Of a stretch of 64,000 nt of DNA, positions 57,058-64,000 are shown in pieces (position 1 is the stretch's first letter; each line of letters begins with the position of its first letter). The stretch is from the NCBI RefSeq assembly GCF_055900595.2, contig NZ_CM148325.1. One strand, written 5' to 3'. A program made the position numbers and the translations under genes. A model generated the notes under the pieces. The model was not told the DNA's origin and ran no database searches. It saw nothing but the letters and a program-made list of their open reading frames with translations.

Positions 57058-57504
57058 TTATCTGCCAGCATTGCGGATGATACCCGAAAGCATATCAGAC
57101 ACCGACGGCATCATTCGCTCCCGCAAATCCTCATCACAGCGTTCCATACTGACAGTGAACTCAATTTTTTTGGCCTTACCGTGGCGGTCAAGTTCGCTTC
57201 GCGTTGTGCGGACAGCCGTTATCACATACATGCCGTATATCTGCCCCACACCGTCAATCAGCGGCCATGGGCGGCCAGTGTAAGCCTGCGTCGTTAAAAG
57301 GCTGAGGGAAACCTCACCGCCGGTAATTTCGGGATAAAGCACACCGGACAACGTGATCTGGTCGTCACCCGCCCCGATATACTGCCAGCTGGCCGAACGA
57401 TTGATGCGTTCATTTTTAACGTGGCGCCAGGTTTTATTATGTTGCAGTTGTTGATGAGGCAGCGTGCGCAACTCAAAAACAAACATGCCGTAAATCATCA
57501 TCAT
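57058..57504 (-). CDS. U: tail protein U
   Basis: 148 aa; MMMIYGMFVFELRTLPHQ...ITLSGVLYPEITGG...GRPWPLIDGVGQIYGMYVI resembles P2 U. Confidence 0.85.
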   Translation of the reverse strand: MMMIYGMFVFELRTLPHQQLQHNKTWRHVKNERINRSASWQYIGAGDDQITLSGVLYPEITGGEVSLSLLTTQAYTGRPWPLIDGVGQIYGMYVITAVRTTRSELDRHGKAKKIEFTVSMERCDEDLRERMMPSVSDMLSGIIRNAGR

Positions 57505-57515
57505 GCGAGGTACTC

Positions 57516-60500
57516 CTAATCTCTGTCACGGAAACTACCGACTGTCTGGCGGATACGGCGTTCCATTTCCGCACGGACGGCATCACCCACCATTTTTGCC
57601 AGTTCGCGCGGGTTTTGCGTGTGAACATCATGCAGGTGAATATGCAGTTCGCCAGTTAATCCCCATGGTGCCGGATCACTCTGACGCGGTCGGGGCGATG
57701 CGGGGGATATGGGCTGGCGCACAGCCTCAACCACCGGACGGGATGTTGCCGTTACGACGGGTGTCATTACCGGCGCAATATTGCCGGACACTACCGGTTT
57801 AATTACCGGGGAGAGCGTCGGTATAACATCGCCAGCCATAACCGGTTTGATCGCTGGCGAAATAACCGGAGCAACAGACTCAGCCATGACGGAACTGACA
57901 GGCTGAGGCGCTCTCACTATGCCAGCATCGATAACCAGCATGAGCTCGCGTACTGCCTCAAGGACAGGACGGGATATTGCCGCCATCACTGGTGTCATTA
58001 GCGGGGAGAACGTCGGCATGACATCGTGAGTCATAACCGGTTTGATCACCGGCGAAACCACCGGCGTAATATTACCGGACAGTACCGGACGGACGACCGG
58101 AGGAATAACCGGCACATTATTCACGGACACCACCGGCTTCACGACCGGCGACACGTTCGCCGTGGTGGATATCAGCGGCGAAACACTGACAGGCGGTGGC
58201 GCTGGCAGCGGTGGCAACGAAGGCACACTGACCGACGGCACCTGCGGCAGTCTGACAGGTGGCTCACTGACACTACCCGGTAACAGGGAAGCTGCGCGGT
58301 TAAAGCGTTCCTCCTTCCACTCACCACGAACGGCCAGCGCTTCCGGCAGGTTTTTAAAGATAATATCGCCGGGACCAGTGCGTTTTTTCGCCTGTTTCGC
58401 CTCATCCAGCAGGCCACCGGTGTTATCGACGATTTTATTCAGGCGACGCATGGTGCCGGTATTCTCCCCCGTCAGCGGAGCAGTTGCTGCAGGTGCAGGT
58501 ACTGGCGGCTTTTTGTCTTTGTCATTTTGCGGCGGATTAATGACATTAACATCCGCCAGGAGCATGGCGGCTTTCTCGTTCAGCAGCTCCTTCTGCTTCA
58601 GCTCTTCCGCCTTTTTCCGGGCGCGCTCAACCGCCGACGGAATCAGCCCGAGTTTTTCCAGCACCCGGGTTAATGAGTCAATCAGCAGCGTAACCGGACC
58701 GGTCACCAGATTGCTGATAAACTCCCCGACCTTCTGCCCGAACGTCCGCCCGGCTTCCGTGCACTTGTCCAGCTCATCCTTTGTTGTGCTTACCGGCGCG
58801 AACAAATCCACGAACCACTGCCACACACGCCCGATTGTCTGCCCGACATACTCAAACAATGGTCCCAGTGGTGCCACAGCCTCGCGCAGTGGCGTAAGCC
58901 CCTGCCACAGGCCGGACAAGAACCCGCCCACGACAGCCTTCAGCTGGTCCCAGTGCCGCCAGATAAGCACTGCCGCACCGACCAGTGTCGCCACCACAAG
59001 GCCCACCGGACTTAACAGAAAACCCAGCGCCCCGCCAAGTGCGCCCACCGCACCACTCACCATCCCCCACAGTGCGGGCAGACCTGACAGTCTGAGCGCC
59101 AGTATTCCGATACCGCGCCCCAGTGAAATCAGTGCGCCGCCAGGTGAAGTGAACGCAGCCAGCAGACCACCACGCAGCGCGCCAAGTCCCGCCTGCACAC
59201 CACGAAGCCGCCCCGCAACTACGCCCAGCAGTGCAGCAAACCGTCCGGCACCGGAGGTGATACCGACAAACAGCACGCGCCAGCCACCGATACCGCCCAG
59301 CGGACCACCGAGTACGCCGCGCAGCTGCGTCAGTAACGGCAGCGCACGACCGAGGCCGGATGTGCCGGTCAGCAGGGCAAACCCAAGACGCAGTTTTGCC
59401 AGCGGCCCCATCAACACACCAGTGGCAAGTGACAGCGCCCCCATGGCCGCAACCGCAGCCAGCAGTGCACCACCGGCAATCAGCAGTTGTTTTGTCAGTT
59501 CAGGGTGCGCCTGGGCCAGCGCGGTGACTTTCGCAATAACCCGGGTGAACGACTGCGTGACAGAACGCAGCGGCCCGTCAACGAGGTCAGCGACACGGAT
59601 ACGCAGCCCTTCCCATGCGCTGTTCAGTGATTTCAGGTCGCCGTCCAGGTTGTCCGCCATGATTCTGGCGTTTTCTTCCAGTTCGCCGTTCGCTGCCTGA
59701 ATCTCACGCGTCAGGCGCGGCAGGTTTTTTTCGCCTGCCTGTTCAACCAGGCTCATCAGGGAGACATACGCCTCCTGCCCGGCAATATCTGAAAAGAACG
59801 AGACTTTTGCCGCGTTACCGTATTTACGGGTGGCCTGATACAGCTCATACAGGATATCTTCCATCGGGCGCATGTTCCCGTAAGCATCCTGCGTTTCCAC
59901 GCCCAGCTGTTTCAGCGCCTTTGCTGCCGCTTTAGGCGGGTTCACAAGGCGGGACAGACTGGAGCGCAGCGCCGTACCAGCATCACTGCCACGTATCCCC
60001 ATCGACCCAAGCAACCCGGTCATGGCTGCGGTCTGTTCAAGAGACAGACCGAGTGAGGCGGCGACCGGTCCCGTATATTTCATCGTCTCACCAAGCCCGC
60101 GCAGGTCGGTATTGGTGCGGGTGAACGTTGCGGCCAGCGTGTCACCCACGCGGTTCATCTGGTCGGCAGACAACCCGAACTGCGTAAGGATATTTGAGCT
60201 GATATCGGCCGTCTGACCGAGGTCCATGCCGCTGGCCGTTGCCAGATTCAGCACGCCGGGAAGAGCCGCCTGTATCGCCTGCGGCGTGAACCCCGCCATG
60301 GCAAGGAACGCCTGACCGCTGGCAGCATCACCTGCGGTAAACTGCGTTTCGGAGCCGAGTTTAAGCGCCTGTTCGCGCAGCGCCTTAAACTGCGGACTGT
60401 TTTTGTCAATACGGGTCAGCGCCTGGACGCGCGACATCTCCTTACCAAAACTGACCGCCGGTTGCAGGAAACGCCCGGCCGCATAGCCACCTGCCGCTGC

Positions 60501-61094
60501 CGTGCCGACTGCCGTAAATCCACCCGCTTTCAGTTTTCCCGCCATCTCCTGAGCGCGGAAATATTGCTGGCGTGCCTGCGTGACGCGTGCCAGAGTCTGC
60601 CGTTCACGTTCCAGCTGTTCGTTGTATTGCTGTGTTCGCCGTATGGCCTGTTGAATGGTGTTGTCACTGCCGGAAAGCGCAATACCGTGACGCCGCAGCT
60701 CACCACCCAGTTCGCGCATTCGCTGAACTTCACGCGCACGGACCTCATTGAGACGCTCAAGTTTGAGGCTCAAATCGTTCATCAGCTTTTTCTGTTTGTC
60801 AGACAGCACGGTTCCGGCGCGCTGAATTTGCTGAAGTGCGCTTAACTGGCGTTGTGCCCGGGCAATGCCGTTTCCGGCCTTGTTTGCAGCCTCGCGGGCG
60901 CGATCAAATGAACGGGCGTGGCGTTCCAGGTTTTTGATCGCACCCTGCGTTCTCTGTATGGAGTCGCCAAGCTGGCCCATCATGCGACGGGCGTTTTCGG
61001 TGGGACGGGTCAGCCTGTCAACAGCGCTGAAGGCGACCCGTATATCAAGCGTTTTCATGCTCTGCGTTCCCGCTGCGAAGGGCCGCCCGCTCAC
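57516..61094 (-). CDS. T: tail tape measure protein (gpT-like, 1,192 aa, with Pro/Val-rich tandem repeats near the C-terminus)
   Basis: long helical protein with a transmembrane-like glycine-rich central region; located between E and U. Confidence 0.85.
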   Translation of the reverse strand: MSGRPFAAGTQSMKTLDIRVAFSAVDRLTRPTENARRMMGQLGDSIQRTQGAIKNLERHARSFDRAREAANKAGNGIARAQRQLSALQQIQRAGTVLSDKQKKLMNDLSLKLERLNEVRAREVQRMRELGGELRRHGIALSGSDNTIQQAIRRTQQYNEQLERERQTLARVTQARQQYFRAQEMAGKLKAGGFTAVGTAAAGGYAAGRFLQPAVSFGKEMSRVQALTRIDKNSPQFKALREQALKLGSETQFTAGDAASGQAFLAMAGFTPQAIQAALPGVLNLATASGMDLGQTADISSNILTQFGLSADQMNRVGDTLAATFTRTNTDLRGLGETMKYTGPVAASLGLSLEQTAAMTGLLGSMGIRGSDAGTALRSSLSRLVNPPKAAAKALKQLGVETQDAYGNMRPMEDILYELYQATRKYGNAAKVSFFSDIAGQEAYVSLMSLVEQAGEKNLPRLTREIQAANGELEENARIMADNLDGDLKSLNSAWEGLRIRVADLVDGPLRSVTQSFTRVIAKVTALAQAHPELTKQLLIAGGALLAAVAAMGALSLATGVLMGPLAKLRLGFALLTGTSGLGRALPLLTQLRGVLGGPLGGIGGWRVLFVGITSGAGRFAALLGVVAGRLRGVQAGLGALRGGLLAAFTSPGGALISLGRGIGILALRLSGLPALWGMVSGAVGALGGALGFLLSPVGLVVATLVGAAVLIWRHWDQLKAVVGGFLSGLWQGLTPLREAVAPLGPLFEYVGQTIGRVWQWFVDLFAPVSTTKDELDKCTEAGRTFGQKVGEFISNLVTGPVTLLIDSLTRVLEKLGLIPSAVERARKKAEELKQKELLNEKAAMLLADVNVINPPQNDKDKKPPVPAPAATAPLTGENTGTMRRLNKIVDNTGGLLDEAKQAKKRTGPGDIIFKNLPEALAVRGEWKEERFNRAASLLPGSVSEPPVRLPQVPSVSVPSLPPLPAPPPVSVSPLISTTANVSPVVKPVVSVNNVPVIPPVVRPVLSGNITPVVSPVIKPVMTHDVMPTFSPLMTPVMAAISRPVLEAVRELMLVIDAGIVRAPQPVSSVMAESVAPVISPAIKPVMAGDVIPTLSPVIKPVVSGNIAPVMTPVVTATSRPVVEAVRQPISPASPRPRQSDPAPWGLTGELHIHLHDVHTQNPRELAKMVGDAVRAEMERRIRQTVGSFRDRD

Positions 61095-61571
61095 GCCAGG
61101 CGACCACCTCGCCGGGATCCATCAGGAAGATTTCAGCGGGAGACCAGTTGAAAATAACGGCGATATCCGCCACAAAGTCTTCAATATGCTCAAAGGGCAC
61201 GACGGTTATCAGCCTGCCGTCGCCGCCACGCTCTTCCCGCCAGAGTCCTGACCGGCCAAAAAATTAACCGCCACCCCGCACAGCTGAATAAAATCAGCGG
61301 ACCCCATGCGCTTAAGCAGAACCTCGTCCAGTCGCGGCGAAGTGACGCGCGGGAGTAACTCAAACATCGCGTCCGTTTTCATGTTCAGCACGTCAAGCAG
61401 TGACAGCCCGCGCAGTGAACCGGCCTGCTGTACAGCAGGCGTGATTTCCACATACGTGATTTTTTTGTTACCGAGCACAAGGGGCGTTTTCAGCGTCACG
61501 CCGCGCTCACTGGTCACGTCCGCCGCATCAGCACCGTCAGTAACAGGGGCAACAACCGGATTTTCTTTCAT
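61045..61571 (-). other. predicted E+E' product made by -1 programmed frameshift at TTTTTTG (61257-61263), extending to a TGA at 61045 and overlapping the T start
   Basis: hand translation of the -1 frame after the slippery heptamer gives ~70 more codons. Confidence 0.5.
61209..61571 (-). CDS. E: tail assembly chaperone E
   Basis: 120-aa ORF between FII and T containing a T6G slippery site near its 3' end. Confidence 0.8.
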   Translation of the reverse strand: MKENPVVAPVTDGADAADVTSERGVTLKTPLVLGNKKITYVEITPAVQQAGSLRGLSLLDVLNMKTDAMFELLPRVTSPRLDEVLLKRMGSADFIQLCGVAVNFLAGQDSGGKSVAATAG

Positions 61572-61621
61572 GAATAAAACCTCAAATCAGGGGGCGACGC
61601 CACGCGCCGCCGTGGAAAACA

Positions 61622-62140
61622 TTAACCACCAAGACCAATCGCCGAGCGCACGCGGTCCGGGAAGACGCTTTTGCCGTCCTTGCGTTCGATGTGGTTCAGT
61701 AAATCAATCTCCAGCACCGGACGGTCGTTAATGCTGAGTTTGTAGTAGGTACTTTTGACCGCATAGGTGTGAGACGTGACCTCACCCTGTTTGGCCTCCC
61801 CGGTATCAATTTCCGTCACGCGACCGCGAAGCTCAATCTCGTACAGGTCACTCTGTTCTTCATCGTTGTAGTACTCACCGACAAAGCGCAGCAGCGTACC
61901 GTCAATCGTTCCGCCGTACTTGAGGAACAGTTCGCGGGTCGGCCCGCCCATGGTGAAACTCGCATCCAGCGCGCCGTCATCCAGGCCAAGGTCGATATTT
62001 ACTGCACCGGCCATACCACCACCGCGATAGGCTTCCGTTTTACGGGTCAGTTTGGGGGCCGTGAAGCCGGTCACTCTGCCAATCTGGTTCACCCCGTCAG
62101 TAAACAGCGTGAACACCCTGAGATTTTTTGGTACGGCCAT
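61622..62140 (-). CDS. FII: tail tube protein FII
   Basis: 172 aa, position after the sheath gene. Confidence 0.9.
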   Translation of the reverse strand: MAVPKNLRVFTLFTDGVNQIGRVTGFTAPKLTRKTEAYRGGGMAGAVNIDLGLDDGALDASFTMGGPTRELFLKYGGTIDGTLLRFVGEYYNDEEQSDLYEIELRGRVTEIDTGEAKQGEVTSHTYAVKSTYYKLSINDRPVLEIDLLNHIERKDGKSVFPDRVRSAIGLGG

Positions 62141-63423
62141 TAAGCACCTCCAAGCGTCGCAAATGCAGGACCAAAGAATTCATCAGTAAACGTCTGGTAA
62201 AGTTCCATATCCTCAAGCGGCGGAACGGGCGTGTACTTGTAGCGGATACGCACGCGTCCCTGACGAAGTTCCGTGGTGCTGTTATCCACCACGTCATACC
62301 AGCACTCCGCACCAACGAGACGTCCTGACGTAACCAGCGCATCCAGTTTTGCGCGAATTGCGCTTAACACGTCTTTCACATTAGCAGGGGTCAGCGGGGC
62401 ATCAATCGTTTCAAACTGCGCTTCCGCAACAGAATCAGCCAGCACCTGAGCGGTTCGCGTGTACACCTCAAAGATATACGCCTTCGTTTCCGGCGTACGG
62501 TTGCCCCAGAAGCGGAAACCGTTACGGCGAATGATGGTGGTGATTTCCTTGTTGTTGAGATTGTTGGCATCGCTGTCTTCGGACTGAAGGGACCAGAACA
62601 CCGGGCTGGAAATACCCAGCACATTTCTTACCGGCACGTTGGACAGCGATTTATGCCAGCCCTGTTCGTGGTCAATACGTGCACGTAAACCGCAGGCGTA
62701 CGCCGCAGCCGGGAAGACCTCATTAGCGCCGGATTTCGGGTTATGGGCGATGAAGTCAGGCCAGAGCAGCATAAGTTCGCGCTCGTTAAATCTGGCGCGG
62801 TAGCTGATTGCATCAGCGGGCTTCTTGCAGTTGTGACAGCCCGCGTAGACAAATGCGCGAAGTTTTTCTGCAATTACACACAGGGATTTTGTGACAGCTT
62901 CAGTATCCAGTCCGGGCGCTGCGATGATGCGCGGACGGTAACCGATGGCATCATCCTGTTCAGCTATCAGAAGTGCATACATACCGGTATAATTACCGTC
63001 GTCATCCGTGCCACCAATGACATACTGGTCCTGCGTTTTGTGTGGGTATACAGGATGTGCATCTTCAGACTCATCAATACCAAAAAATGCCCTGTCTTCA
63101 GGATCCAGATGACCGAATGATGTAACTCCTGTATCCGGGGCGCCCTGAGAACTGGCATCAGGAACGCGCACCACAATCACCTTCGTGCTCACCTGGTCGG
63201 CGACAGCCTTAAGTGAACGGTACAGCGTGCCCTTTGTGCCGGTCTTACCCAGCACATCACTGACGCGGGTCAGCAGTATGGGTTTGTTCAGCGGGAACAG
63301 AGTTTCATCCGCGTCATCTGCCGTAGCCACAATACCAATAACACTGGAATCCACATCATTAATGGCGGTGGTAAGGCCGGTACTTTCCCTTACGCGCGCA
63401 CCATGAAAGCGTGTTTCACTCAT
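62140..63423 (-). CDS. FI: contractile tail sheath protein FI
   Basis: strong similarity to P2 FI (KLRAF, IDHEQGWHKSLSNV, RRNGFRFWGNRT, YKYTPVPPLE); likely start MSETRF at 63423. Confidence 0.9.
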   Translation of the reverse strand: MSETRFHGARVRESTGLTTAINDVDSSVIGIVATADDADETLFPLNKPILLTRVSDVLGKTGTKGTLYRSLKAVADQVSTKVIVVRVPDASSQGAPDTGVTSFGHLDPEDRAFFGIDESEDAHPVYPHKTQDQYVIGGTDDDGNYTGMYALLIAEQDDAIGYRPRIIAAPGLDTEAVTKSLCVIAEKLRAFVYAGCHNCKKPADAISYRARFNERELMLLWPDFIAHNPKSGANEVFPAAAYACGLRARIDHEQGWHKSLSNVPVRNVLGISSPVFWSLQSEDSDANNLNNKEITTIIRRNGFRFWGNRTPETKAYIFEVYTRTAQVLADSVAEAQFETIDAPLTPANVKDVLSAIRAKLDALVTSGRLVGAECWYDVVDNSTTELRQGRVRIRYKYTPVPPLEDMELYQTFTDEFFGPAFATLGGA

Positions 63424-63583
63424 ATGTTTCACCCTTGTCTGGCTGGTTGATTTTGCGTAATCATTACCCACGATGCCGCCGGTATCATCTCCTGCCCGTT
63501 CTCACCGTTCGCTTACAACAAACAGCCGTTCACCACGGTCGCACGCCGTGAAAACATGACGGGACACACCACGAGGGCAGACC

Positions 63584-64000
63584 ATGACCGACCTGTTAAT
63601 CAACGTTCCGTCACCGGATATCGAAATCACCATCAACAACAACAGACTCCGTAACGTCACGGAGCGGCTCATGACGCTGTCACTGACCGACAACCGGGGC
63701 TTTGAGGCGGACCGCGTCACCCTGACCATTGACGACGCGGACGGGCAGCTTCAGCTGGCACAGCGCGGCGCACGCCTGAACGTGATGATTGGCTGGCGCG
63801 GGGAGGCGCTGGTTAACAAGGGTGTCTACATCGTTGATGAAGTGACGTGGGAAGGCCCGCCGGACAAACTGACCATCACCGCCAGCAGCGCCGATTTTCG
63901 CGAAGAGTTCAACGTGAAGCGTGAAGTCTCCTGGCACGACGTGACGGTAAAACAGGTTGTGTCAGCCATCGCGCACCGCTACGGCCTGAAAGCACAGATA
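63584..64000 (+). CDS. D: tail protein D, N-terminal part (continues beyond window)
   Basis: MTDLLINVPSPDIEITINNNRL... resembles the P2 D N-terminus; ATG at 63584. Confidence 0.75.
   Translation, partial: MTDLLINVPSPDIEITINNNRLRNVTERLMTLSLTDNRGFEADRVTLTIDDADGQLQLAQRGARLNVMIGWRGEALVNKGVYIVDEVTWEGPPDKLTITASSADFREEFNVKREVSWHDVTVKQVVSAIAHRYGLKAQI

What the first reader, a model, noticed from the sequence alone, without database searches (positions are those of the whole stretch)
61045..61263. Conserved -1 programmed frameshift site for E/E'
Gene E has the heptamer T-TTT-TTG (minus strand, 61263-61257) about 50 nt before its stop. The -1 frame stays open for ~70 codons to a TGA at 61045, overlapping the start of T. 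This is the P2 E/E' arrangement, analogous to lambda G/GT, and should be annotated as a fusion product.
Basis: partly seen in the sequence, partly recalled or inferred. Interest (0 to 1): 0.3.

Follow-up and report, generated by a model that had tools for sequence, protein, structure and literature searches.

The report
P2-type tail chaperone frameshift site
This is the well-known -1 ribosomal frameshift that lets P2-like phages make two tail-assembly chaperones (E and E+E') from one gene, here in a P88-like E. coli prophage; it is real but ordinary, and public records mis-annotate it as two separate genes.

Summary
On the minus strand, gene E (61571-61209, 120 aa) carries an in-phase T_TTT_TTG (61263-61257). 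The -1 frame opens at a TAA just 5' of it, runs 70 sense codons to TGA 61047-61045, and overlaps the tape-measure ATG (61058) by 14 nt.

The geometry alone is not significant: 22% of random positions and frames in this window are followed by at least 71 sense codons. Homology and conservation decide the case.
- The -1 extension matches Pfam PF06528 Phage_P2_GpE (4e-12).
- E and E' align to P2 E (35% identity, 2e-14) and P2 E' (49%, 7e-16).
- The gene sits between tube (FII) and tape-measure (T) genes.
- In 19 GenBank relatives and 80 IMG/VR loci, E' is always in the -1 frame.
- All 80 IMG/VR loci and 18 of the 19 relatives have an in-phase X_XXY_YYZ heptamer at, or one codon before, the homologous Phe-Leu. 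The Mannheimia phage has G_GGA_AAG further downstream.
- Substitutions cluster at -1-frame third positions.
- Several relatives have no start codon ahead of the conserved E' core.
- No stimulatory RNA structure was found, as reported for P2.

Verdict: an orthologue of the P2 E/E+E' programmed frameshift, producing a 175-aa fusion. It is already known biology and low interest. Its practical value is correcting the annotation.

The parts
61209..61571 (-). Gene E (zero-frame product, 120 aa): tail assembly chaperone, homologue of P2 gpE
   Evidence: ORF and translation. PHROG 103 'tail protein' 4e-31. BLASTP to P2 E 35% identity, 2e-14. No Pfam or NCBIfam hit.
61257..61263 (-). Slippery heptamer T_TTT_TTG, in phase (AAT TTT TTG = codons 103-105, N-F-L)
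   Evidence: Sequence and phase. Same heptamer at the homologous F-L column in P2, 186 and 13 other GenBank relatives. 60 of 92 distinct E sequences carry NNT TTT TTG, against 1.45% expected from codon usage.
61045..61257 (-). E' : -1 frame extension, 70 sense codons plus TGA (61047-61045); G61257 is read twice
   Evidence: Translation. PHROG 1756 1e-32. BLASTP to P2 E' 49% identity, 7e-16. Substitutions against P88, phiT5282H and Kp4861-1 cluster at -1-frame third positions.
61045..61571 (-). Predicted E+E' fusion product (175 aa; junction ...VAVNFL|GRSGLW...)
   Evidence: Built. AlphaFold2 model has mean pLDDT 84.7 and pTM 0.75, and the linker is confidently modelled.
61066..61173 (-). Pfam PF06528 Phage_P2_GpE domain (fusion residues 134-169), encoded only in the -1 frame
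   Evidence: hmmscan E = 4e-12, 45.8 bits against a cutoff of 23.
61209..61256 (-). Dual-coded stretch: C-terminal tail of E (AGQDSGGKSVAATAG) in frame 0 and the conserved linker G.W..ERGGDG of E+E' in frame -1
   Evidence: The linker motif is conserved in P88, Kp4861-1, phiT5282H and 3LV2017. The model places a beta-hairpin at residues 112-124.
61264..61266 (-). TAA in the -1 frame directly 5' of the heptamer, so the -1 ORF opens exactly at the slip site
61045..61200 (-). The 51-aa GTG-start ORF that public annotation calls 'GpE family phage tail protein'; most likely an annotation surrogate for E', not a separate gene
   Evidence: This start codon is absent in Kp4861-1, phiT5282H and 3LV2017.
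57516..61058 (-). Tape measure protein T (1180 aa from ATG 61058); its start overlaps the end of E' by 14 nt
   Evidence: Pfam PF10145 3e-58 and TIGR01760 2e-87. Same start is used in the PGAP and P88 records.
61622..62140 (-). Tail tube protein FII, immediately upstream of E
   Evidence: PF04985 4e-44 and TIGR01611 2e-34.
62140..63471 (-). Tail sheath protein FI (PGAP start would be about 63423)
   Evidence: PF04984, PF22671 and PF17482. Annotation of the near-identical locus.
57058..57504 (-). gpU homologue, downstream of T
   Evidence: PF06995 Phage_P2_GpU 7e-41.

Best explanation
This is the orthologue, in a P88/Xuanwuvirus-like (Peduoviridae) E. coli prophage, of the bacteriophage P2 E/E+E' programmed -1 ribosomal frameshift.

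Most ribosomes translate E to its stop at 61209 and make the 120-aa tail assembly chaperone. A minority slip back one base when tRNA-Phe (UUU, P site) and tRNA-Leu (UUG, A site) sit on U_UUU_UUG at 61263-61257. They re-pair in the -1 frame and continue for 70 more codons, giving a 175-aa E+E' protein (junction ...VAVNFL-GRSGLW...). This protein ends 14 nt inside the tape-measure gene.

By analogy with lambda G/GT and P2, both proteins share the N-terminal chaperone domain, which is inferred to bind the tape measure. Only the frameshift product carries the GpE domain, which is inferred to recruit the tube protein. A fixed E : E+E' ratio would be needed for tail assembly, and neither protein would be in the virion.

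Shown here: the sequence anatomy, the homology of both halves, the gene position, conservation of the -1 frame and of a slippery heptamer, and purifying selection on the -1 frame. Inferred: that slippage happens, its efficiency, and the binding partners.
For: 1. Anatomy is exactly as described.
2. The -1 frame encodes Pfam PF06528 Phage_P2_GpE (4e-12, above its gathering score) and PHROG 1756 (1e-32). It is 49% identical to P2 E' (7e-16). E is 35% identical to P2 E (2e-14).
3. The gene order is FI-FII-E-E'-T-U.
4. tblastn of the fusion finds 396 phage records. In 58 of the 60 rows listed, the match is split into two pieces in different frames.
5. In 19/19 fetched GenBank or RefSeq loci and 80/80 IMG/VR loci (76 distinct), E' is in the -1 frame relative to E.
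6. An in-phase X_XXY_YYZ heptamer lies at, or 3 nt before, the homologous F-L codons in all 80 IMG/VR loci and in 18 of the 19 GenBank relatives. The Mannheimia phage is the exception, with G_GGA_AAG further downstream. Among the 76 distinct IMG/VR sequences the counts are T_TTT_TTG 46, A_AAT_TTT 13, C_CCT_TTC 13, T_TTT_TTA 2 and T_TTT_TTC 2. NNT TTT TTG is seen in 60 of 92 distinct E genes, against 1.45% expected from their own codon usage. The preceding codon ends in T in 92/92, across 7 different codons.
7. After E's stop, differences from P88 fall 7/3/16 on -1-frame codon positions 1/2/3. For phiT5282H the counts are 14/8/26 and for Kp4861-1 14/9/29. Amino-acid identity to P88 after E's stop is 85% in the -1 frame and 61-65% in the other two.
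8. Kp4861-1, phiT5282H and 3LV2017 have no ATG, GTG or TTG in the -1 ORF before codon 43-46, which is inside the conserved core. The domain can therefore only be reached by frameshifting.
9. The linker upstream of the window's GTG is conserved (G.W..ERGGDG) and is confidently modelled as a beta-hairpin.
10. Literature: P2 makes E (91 aa) and E+E' (142 aa) by -1 frameshifting at TTTTTTG. The site is conserved in P2-like phages and has no downstream hairpin (PMC3091744, citing Christie 2002 and Xu 2004). Lambda G/GT function is reviewed in PMC5009743. GenBank records for 186, KS5 and FLC5 annotate the frameshift.
Against: - There is no experimental evidence for this prophage or for any P88-like phage. 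The P88 paper does not mention a frameshift.
- No stimulatory RNA structure is detectable. The z-scores are +0.12 and -0.37 for the 100 and 60 nt downstream, and the consensus fold of 12 relatives is only -1.5 kcal/mol. No Rfam hit. Efficiency therefore rests on the heptamer alone, though the same is reported for P2.
- The geometry alone is not statistically unusual in this G+C-rich window.
- The E N-domain misses Pfam PF10109 and all NCBIfam models.
- A GTG at 61200 could in principle start an independent 51-aa product.
- The relatives are phylogenetically related, so the counts are not independent events.
Confidence: 0.92

Rival explanations
1. E' is an independent small gene. Translation starts at GTG 61200 and gives the 51-aa 'GpE family phage tail protein' that PGAP and the P88 and Chuche records annotate, with no frameshift.
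For: An ORF with a GTG start exists at 61200-61045. Public records annotate it this way. P88 and Chuche keep the GTG.
Against: - No convincing Shine-Dalgarno precedes the GTG. The upstream sequence is caggctgataaccgtc, with only an AGG 12 nt away.
- The start codon is missing in Kp4861-1, phiT5282H and 3LV2017, where the first possible start lies inside the conserved core.
- The 19 -1-frame codons upstream of the GTG are conserved at the protein level and are confidently modelled.
- This model does not explain the strictly conserved in-phase heptamer or the -1 phase in 99 of 99 relatives.
- For P2, the 142-aa E+E' read from E's own start codon is the reported product.
Confidence: 0.03
2. The fusion is made by transcriptional slippage. 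RNA polymerase adds one extra U in the T6 run, and the mRNA then reads ...N-F-F-G-R-S... in frame. Ribosomes do not shift.
For: A homopolymeric T6 run is present, and some relatives have T7 (Zymomonas). The outcome is the same downstream frame. Sequence analysis alone cannot tell the two mechanisms apart in this window.
Against: - By my own knowledge of the field, efficient slippage by bacterial RNA polymerase needs runs of about 7-9 or more.
- Relatives keep the frameshift with heptamers that have only 3-4-nt runs: C_CCT_TTC in 13 and A_AAT_TTT in 13 distinct loci. These fit tandem tRNA re-pairing but not polymerase slippage.
- What is conserved is the codon phase of the heptamer, which is a ribosomal property.
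Confidence: 0.04
3. This is a chance configuration or a decayed relic: a slippery-looking heptamer and an open -1 frame with no product in this prophage.
For: Geometry of this kind is common in the window. 22% of positions and frames are followed by at least 71 sense codons. In the 99.9%-identical locus of strain LH50-c, the tape-measure gene is annotated as a pseudogene, so some copies of this prophage are decaying.
Against: The Pfam domain, the conservation, the third-position substitution pattern and the intact flanking FI, FII, T and U genes in this window all argue against it.
Confidence: 0.01

Closest known systems
Bacteriophage P2 E / E+E' programmed -1 frameshift (Christie et al. 2002, J Bacteriol 184:6522; cited through PMC3091744)
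   Same: - Homologous E (35% identity) and E' (49% identity, Pfam PF06528).
- The same heptamer T_TTT_TTG on the homologous Phe-Leu codons.
- The same -1 direction.
- The same position between FII and T.
- The end of E' overlaps the start of T.
- No downstream RNA structure.
   Different: - E is 120 aa against 91 aa, with a longer and poorly modelled N-terminus.
- The E N-domain no longer hits Pfam PF10109, whereas P2 E scores 2.6e-12.
- E' is 70 codons against 57, because of a roughly 14-aa linker (G.W..ERGGDG) shared with the P88, Reipivirus, Novemvirus and Reginaelenavirus lineages.
- The slip site is 45 nt from E's stop, against 18 nt in P2.
- gpD is not downstream of U but divergent from FI, so the operon is not FETUD.
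Escherichia phage P88 / Xuanwuvirus gp47-gp46 (NC_026014), and phage Chuche
   Same: These are the closest sequenced phages, at 75-79% nt identity. E is 62-66% identical and E' 83-84%. They have the same E' length, the same 14-nt overlap with T, and the same heptamer.
   Different: P88 and Chuche have the extended A_AAT_TTT_TTG, which is two overlapping heptamers. The window has TT_AAT_TTT_TTG with a -1-frame TAA. None of these records annotates a fusion.
Bacteriophage lambda G / GT (Levin et al. 1993; Xu, Hendrix, Duda 2004, 2013, 2014; reviewed in PMC5009743)
   Same: - The same logic and the same genomic position, between the major tail (tube) gene and the tape-measure gene.
[quoted passage not shown]
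- Two products with a shared N-terminus.
- Inferred roles: the chaperone binds the tape measure and the extension binds the tube protein.
   Different: I tested no sequence similarity to lambda. Lambda has a different heptamer (G_GGA_AAG) and belongs to a siphovirus. The analogy is functional and does not imply family membership. One P2-like relative (Mannheimia 587AP1) does use G_GGA_AAG.

Membership tests
P2-type E/E+E' frameshifted tail assembly chaperone (Peduoviridae) | Upstream ORF homologous to P2 gpE (Pfam PF10109 Phage_TAC_7) | tested here: met
   BLASTP to P2 E gives 35% identity over 88 aa, 2e-14. PHROG 103 scores 4e-31. The Pfam model itself is NOT matched: no hit for the window, 0.019 for P88 and 2.6e-12 for P2. 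Homology is therefore shown by pairwise and PHROG evidence, not by Pfam.
P2-type E/E+E' frameshifted tail assembly chaperone (Peduoviridae) | -1 frame extension carrying the GpE domain (Pfam PF06528) | tested here: met
   hmmscan gives 4e-12 and 45.8 bits against a cutoff of 23, over residues 134-169 of the fusion. The extension is 49% identical to P2 E'.
P2-type E/E+E' frameshifted tail assembly chaperone (Peduoviridae) | In-phase slippery heptamer (T_TTT_TTG in P2) at the homologous position near the 3' end of E | tested here: met
   The phase is AAT TTT TTG. The F-L codons fall in the same alignment column as in P2 and 186.
P2-type E/E+E' frameshifted tail assembly chaperone (Peduoviridae) | Located between the tail tube gene (FII) and the tape measure gene (T), with E' ending at or over the T start | tested here: met
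   Pfam and TIGRFAM assignments of the neighbouring genes. The overlap with T is 14 nt.
P2-type E/E+E' frameshifted tail assembly chaperone (Peduoviridae) | E' has no translation start of its own | tested here: inconclusive
   The window has a GTG at -1-frame codon 20 without a good Shine-Dalgarno. Three relatives have no start before the conserved core. This argues against independent initiation but does not exclude it in this window.
P2-type E/E+E' frameshifted tail assembly chaperone (Peduoviridae) | Both E and the fusion E+E' are actually produced and are needed for tail assembly | not testable with these tools
   This needs a reporter assay, proteomics or genetics. It is known for P2 only from the literature.
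Lambda G/GT-type tail assembly chaperone frameshift (Xu, Hendrix, Duda 2004 class) | Two overlapping ORFs between the major tail (tube) gene and the tape measure gene, joined by a conserved -1 (rarely +1) shift at a slippery sequence | tested here: met
   This shows membership of the functional class only. I did not test sequence homology to lambda G or T.

The most novel reading that the evidence does not exclude
In the P88, Reipivirus and Novemvirus lineage to which this prophage belongs, the frameshift product has gained a conserved linker of about 14 residues. The linker (G.W..ERGGDG) is confidently modelled as a beta-hairpin and is encoded entirely in the stretch that is also read in frame 0. 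In the same lineage the slip site has hopped between three adjacent heptamers (A_AAT_TTT, T_TTT_TTG, C_CCT_TTC). This could mean a lineage-specific extra function for E+E', a differently tuned E : E+E' ratio, or a third product started at GTG 61200, rather than a plain copy of the P2 arrangement.
Probability: 0.08. Interest if true: 0.25.

Novelty: already known. Interest (0 to 1): 0.1.

Why it matters
The scientific value is small. The mechanism, the protein family, the heptamer and its conservation among P2-like phages were published in 2002-2010.

The practical value is in annotation. RefSeq/PGAP records for the E. coli genomes carrying this prophage, and the P88, Chuche, SEN8, Shewanella M16-3 and RefSeq P2 records examined, either split E' off as a short ORF or omit it. 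These ORFs carry names such as 'GpE family phage tail protein', 'tail protein' or 'hypothetical protein', and some have an arbitrary GTG start. The real 175-aa product is therefore missing from protein databases.

The comparative data also give a clean example of selection on slipperiness. The heptamer moves by one codon and changes sequence, while the -1 phase and the position are kept.

Tried and rejected
- Pfam and NCBIfam on the E N-domain gave no hit, even at E <= 10. Homology had to be shown by BLASTP and PHROGs.
- NCBIfam gave no hit for the fusion.
- A PDB sequence search of the fusion found nothing relevant.
- Foldseek of the AlphaFold2 model against the PDB gave no match at E <= 0.001.
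- Foldseek against BFVD gave two unnamed 83-89-aa viral proteins matching the E domain (TM 0.80-0.85) and weak hits to named tail assembly chaperones. This is consistent with the interpretation but adds little.
- I looked for a stimulatory RNA element in three ways: single-sequence folds, a consensus fold of 12 relatives and Rfam. All were negative. The structure hypothesis is rejected, in agreement with the reports for P2.
- I considered an internal Shine-Dalgarno-like stimulator upstream of the heptamer (GGGGTGG, 7 nt before it). It is not conserved in P88, so I rejected it.
- I tested whether the geometry alone is significant. It is not.
- Tandem Repeats Finder on the tape-measure gene found nothing.
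- The primary P2 paper (PMC135442) is not in the held library. It is cited second-hand through PMC3091744.
- My first coordinate transfer for gpD was off by one base. It was corrected by six-frame translation.
Full report
**Observation.** On the minus strand, an ORF runs from ATG 61571 to TGA 61211-61209 and encodes 120 aa. A GAGG lies 8 nt upstream of the ATG. The run TTTTTTG occupies 61263-61257. Codon 104 starts at 61262, so the zero-frame reading is AAT TTT TTG (N-F-L). The heptamer is therefore in the canonical X_XXY_YYZ phase. The -1 frame carries a TAA at 61266-61264, directly 5' of the heptamer. From G61257 it is open for 70 sense codons up to TGA 61047-61045. The next gene's ATG is at 61058, which gives a 14-nt overlap (ATGAAAACGCTTGA).

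**Is it more than chance?** The geometry alone is not. In this G+C-rich window, 22% of random positions and frames are followed by at least 71 sense codons. There are 29 in-phase XXXYYYZ heptamers in the last 150 nt of ORFs of 90 aa or more, and four of them have longer -1 extensions than this one. TTTTTTG occurs 24 times in the window, against about 10 expected. The case rests on what the -1 frame encodes and on comparison with relatives.

**What the frames encode.**
- The predicted fusion is 175 aa, with junction ...VAVNFL|GRSGLW....
- It matches Pfam PF06528 Phage_P2_GpE at residues 134-169 (E = 4e-12, 45.8 bits, cutoff 23). These residues are encoded only in the -1 frame.
- PHROGs assigns E to phrog_103 (4e-31) and E' to phrog_1756 (1e-32). 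Both are labelled 'tail protein'.
- BLASTP against P2 gives 35% identity for E (2e-14) and 49% for E' (7e-16).
- The E N-domain does not reach Pfam PF10109 Phage_TAC_7. P2 E scores 2.6e-12, P88 E scores 0.019, and the window gives no hit.
- The neighbours on the same strand, read 5' to 3', are: sheath FI (start 63471), tube FII (62140-61622), E, E', tape measure T (61058-57516; PF10145 and TIGR01760), and gpU (57504-57058).

**Origin of the window.** The region is 99.3-99.9% identical to prophages in 28 of 5,426 complete E. coli genomes, many of them from chickens. Among sequenced phages it is closest to Chuche, P88 and other Xuanwuvirus members (Peduoviridae), at 75-79% nt identity. It is therefore P2-like but is not P2.

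**Public annotation.** PGAP calls E 'phage tail protein' or 'hypothetical protein'. It calls E' a separate 51-aa GTG-start 'GpE family phage tail protein'. The P88 and Chuche records do the same. The RefSeq P2 record examined omits E' altogether. The 186 record notes a probable frameshift, and the KS5 and FLC5 records annotate a joined CDS.

**Conservation in GenBank and RefSeq relatives.** tblastn of the fusion against 50,697 phage records finds 396 records. In 58 of the 60 rows listed, the match is split into two pieces. I fetched 19 diverse loci, from phages and prophages of E. coli, Klebsiella, Enterobacter, Yersinia, Salmonella, Shewanella, Zymomonas, Burkholderia, Ralstonia, Mannheimia and Vibrio.
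- E' is in the -1 frame relative to E in all 19.
- Of the 18 relatives that are not near-identical to the window, 14 have in-phase T_TTT_TTG.
- The other four have T_TTT_TTT, T_TTT_TTC, G_GGA_AAG or C_CCT_TTC.
- In the alignment of fused proteins, the Phe-Leu encoded by TTT TTG falls in the same column throughout.

**Conservation in IMG/VR.** A scan of IMG/VR returned 80 more loci, 76 of them distinct.
- E' is in the -1 frame in 80 of 80.
- An in-phase canonical heptamer lies at, or 3 nt before, the homologous place in every one.
- The counts are T_TTT_TTG 46, A_AAT_TTT 13 (where TTT ATG replaces TTT TTG), C_CCT_TTC 13, T_TTT_TTA 2 and T_TTT_TTC 2.
- Over 92 distinct E genes, NNT TTT TTG occurs in 60. 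Their own codon usage predicts 1.45%.
- The codon before TTT ends in T in all 92, although it encodes seven different amino acids.

These counts are inflated by shared ancestry. Even so, the replacement of one heptamer by another at an adjacent position shows that slipperiness itself is selected.

**Selection on the -1 frame.** Downstream of E's stop, differences from P88 fall 7/3/16 on -1-frame codon positions 1/2/3. The counts are 14/8/26 for phiT5282H and 14/9/29 for Kp4861-1. Amino-acid identity to P88 is 85% in the -1 frame and 61-65% in the other two frames.

**Independent initiation.** The window's GTG at 61200 is codon 20 of the -1 ORF and lacks a good Shine-Dalgarno. Kp4861-1, phiT5282H and 3LV2017 have no start codon before codon 43-46, which is inside the conserved ADIAVIF core. 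The 19 codons upstream of the GTG encode a linker motif (G.W..ERGGDG) that is conserved in this lineage. An AlphaFold2 model of the fusion has mean pLDDT 84.7 and pTM 0.75. It places a beta-hairpin at residues 112-124, with pLDDT about 86-88. A separate 51-aa gene is therefore unlikely.

**Mechanism.**
- I found no stimulatory RNA structure. The 100 and 60 nt downstream fold no better than shuffles (z = +0.12 and -0.37).
- The consensus fold of 12 relatives has no helix within about 75 nt of the site (-1.5 kcal/mol).
- Rfam finds nothing.
- This agrees with the published statement that the P2 and Burkholderia E+E' sites lack downstream hairpins (PMC3091744).
- The short-run variants C_CCT_TTC and A_AAT_TTT in relatives fit tandem tRNA re-pairing on the ribosome. 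They do not fit RNA-polymerase slippage, which needs longer homopolymers (this last point is my own knowledge). Phase conservation also points to the ribosome.
- The functional model is inferred from lambda G/GT (PMC5009743) and from P2. In that model, E and the E part of E+E' coat the tape measure, the E' domain recruits the tube protein, and neither protein ends up in the virion. None of this was tested here.

**Comparison with known systems and novelty.** This is an orthologue of the P2 E/E+E' recoding site. It shares the protein family, the heptamer, the codon position and the genomic position. The differences are quantitative:
- E is longer and more diverged (120 aa against 91 aa).
- E' is 13 codons longer, with a lineage-specific linker.
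- The slip site lies 45 nt rather than 18 nt before E's stop.
- gpD is placed differently.

I rate it already known and of low interest (0.1). Its main use is to correct the annotation to a ribosomal_slippage join, complement(join(61045..61257,61257..61571)).

**Leads that went nowhere.** The PDB sequence search and the Foldseek search against the PDB gave nothing. BFVD gave only two unnamed small viral proteins matching the E domain, plus weak hits to named tail assembly chaperones. The primary P2 paper is not in the held library.

Noticed in passing
window 61593-61611 (minus strand), between the FII stop (61622) and the E start (61571): A G+C-rich hairpin (8 bp, 3-nt loop, -17 kcal/mol) with no clear T tract sits here. 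P88 has a 9-bp hairpin at the same place. In phage 186 the same intergenic position is annotated 'tI; partial terminator of pJ transcript', and Mannheimia 587AP1 has a rho-independent terminator there. It may lower expression of E, T and U relative to sheath and tube. The z-score in the window is only -1.3.
   Followed up: partly
window 63584-64000 (+ strand, runs off the window end): A gpD (late control D) homologue starts at ATG 63584 on the opposite strand, divergent from the sheath gene. The tail operon here is FI-FII-E-E'-T-U without D, unlike P2's FETUD order. The near-identical LH50-c locus is annotated the same way.
   Followed up: partly
relatives: L021, L023-L034, L037, L038 (A_AAT_TTT); L007, L062-L078 (C_CCT_TTC); L012, L019, L061, L076, L095, L097 (T_TTT_TTT/A/C); L017 (G_GGA_AAG): The slip site differs between lineages. 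Where TTT TTG is lost (TTT ATG or TTC TTG), a canonical heptamer one codon upstream takes over. P88 has both heptamers in tandem (A_AAT_TTT_TTG). This is a clean case of turnover of a recoding signal at a fixed position.
   Followed up: partly
window 57516-58500 (minus strand), C-terminal ~230 aa of the tape measure protein: The 1180-aa tape measure is much longer than P88's (about 935 aa). It ends with Pro/Val-rich stretches that look like an internal duplication at the protein level (...SPVIKPVM..D.V.PT.SP...SRPV.EAVR... appears twice in the translation). Tandem Repeats Finder sees no DNA repeat. In strain LH50-c the orthologous gene is annotated as a truncated pseudogene.
   Followed up: no
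window 58042-59700 (+ strand): A 552-aa ORF lies antisense to the tape-measure gene. It is rich in S, P, T, G and A, and is most likely a non-coding shadow ORF of G+C-rich coding DNA.
   Followed up: no
whole window: TTTTTTG occurs 24 times, against about 10 expected from dinucleotide-preserving shuffles. The occurrences are concentrated at 1-5 kb and 28-47 kb. This probably reflects A+T-rich intergenic or foreign segments and was not examined.
   Followed up: no
public records NZ_CP100500, NC_026014, PP925824, NC_070904, NC_047753, NC_070920: E' is systematically annotated as a stand-alone short CDS or omitted, instead of as a ribosomal_slippage join. Only the 186, KS5 and FLC5 records among those examined record the frameshift.
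   Followed up: yes
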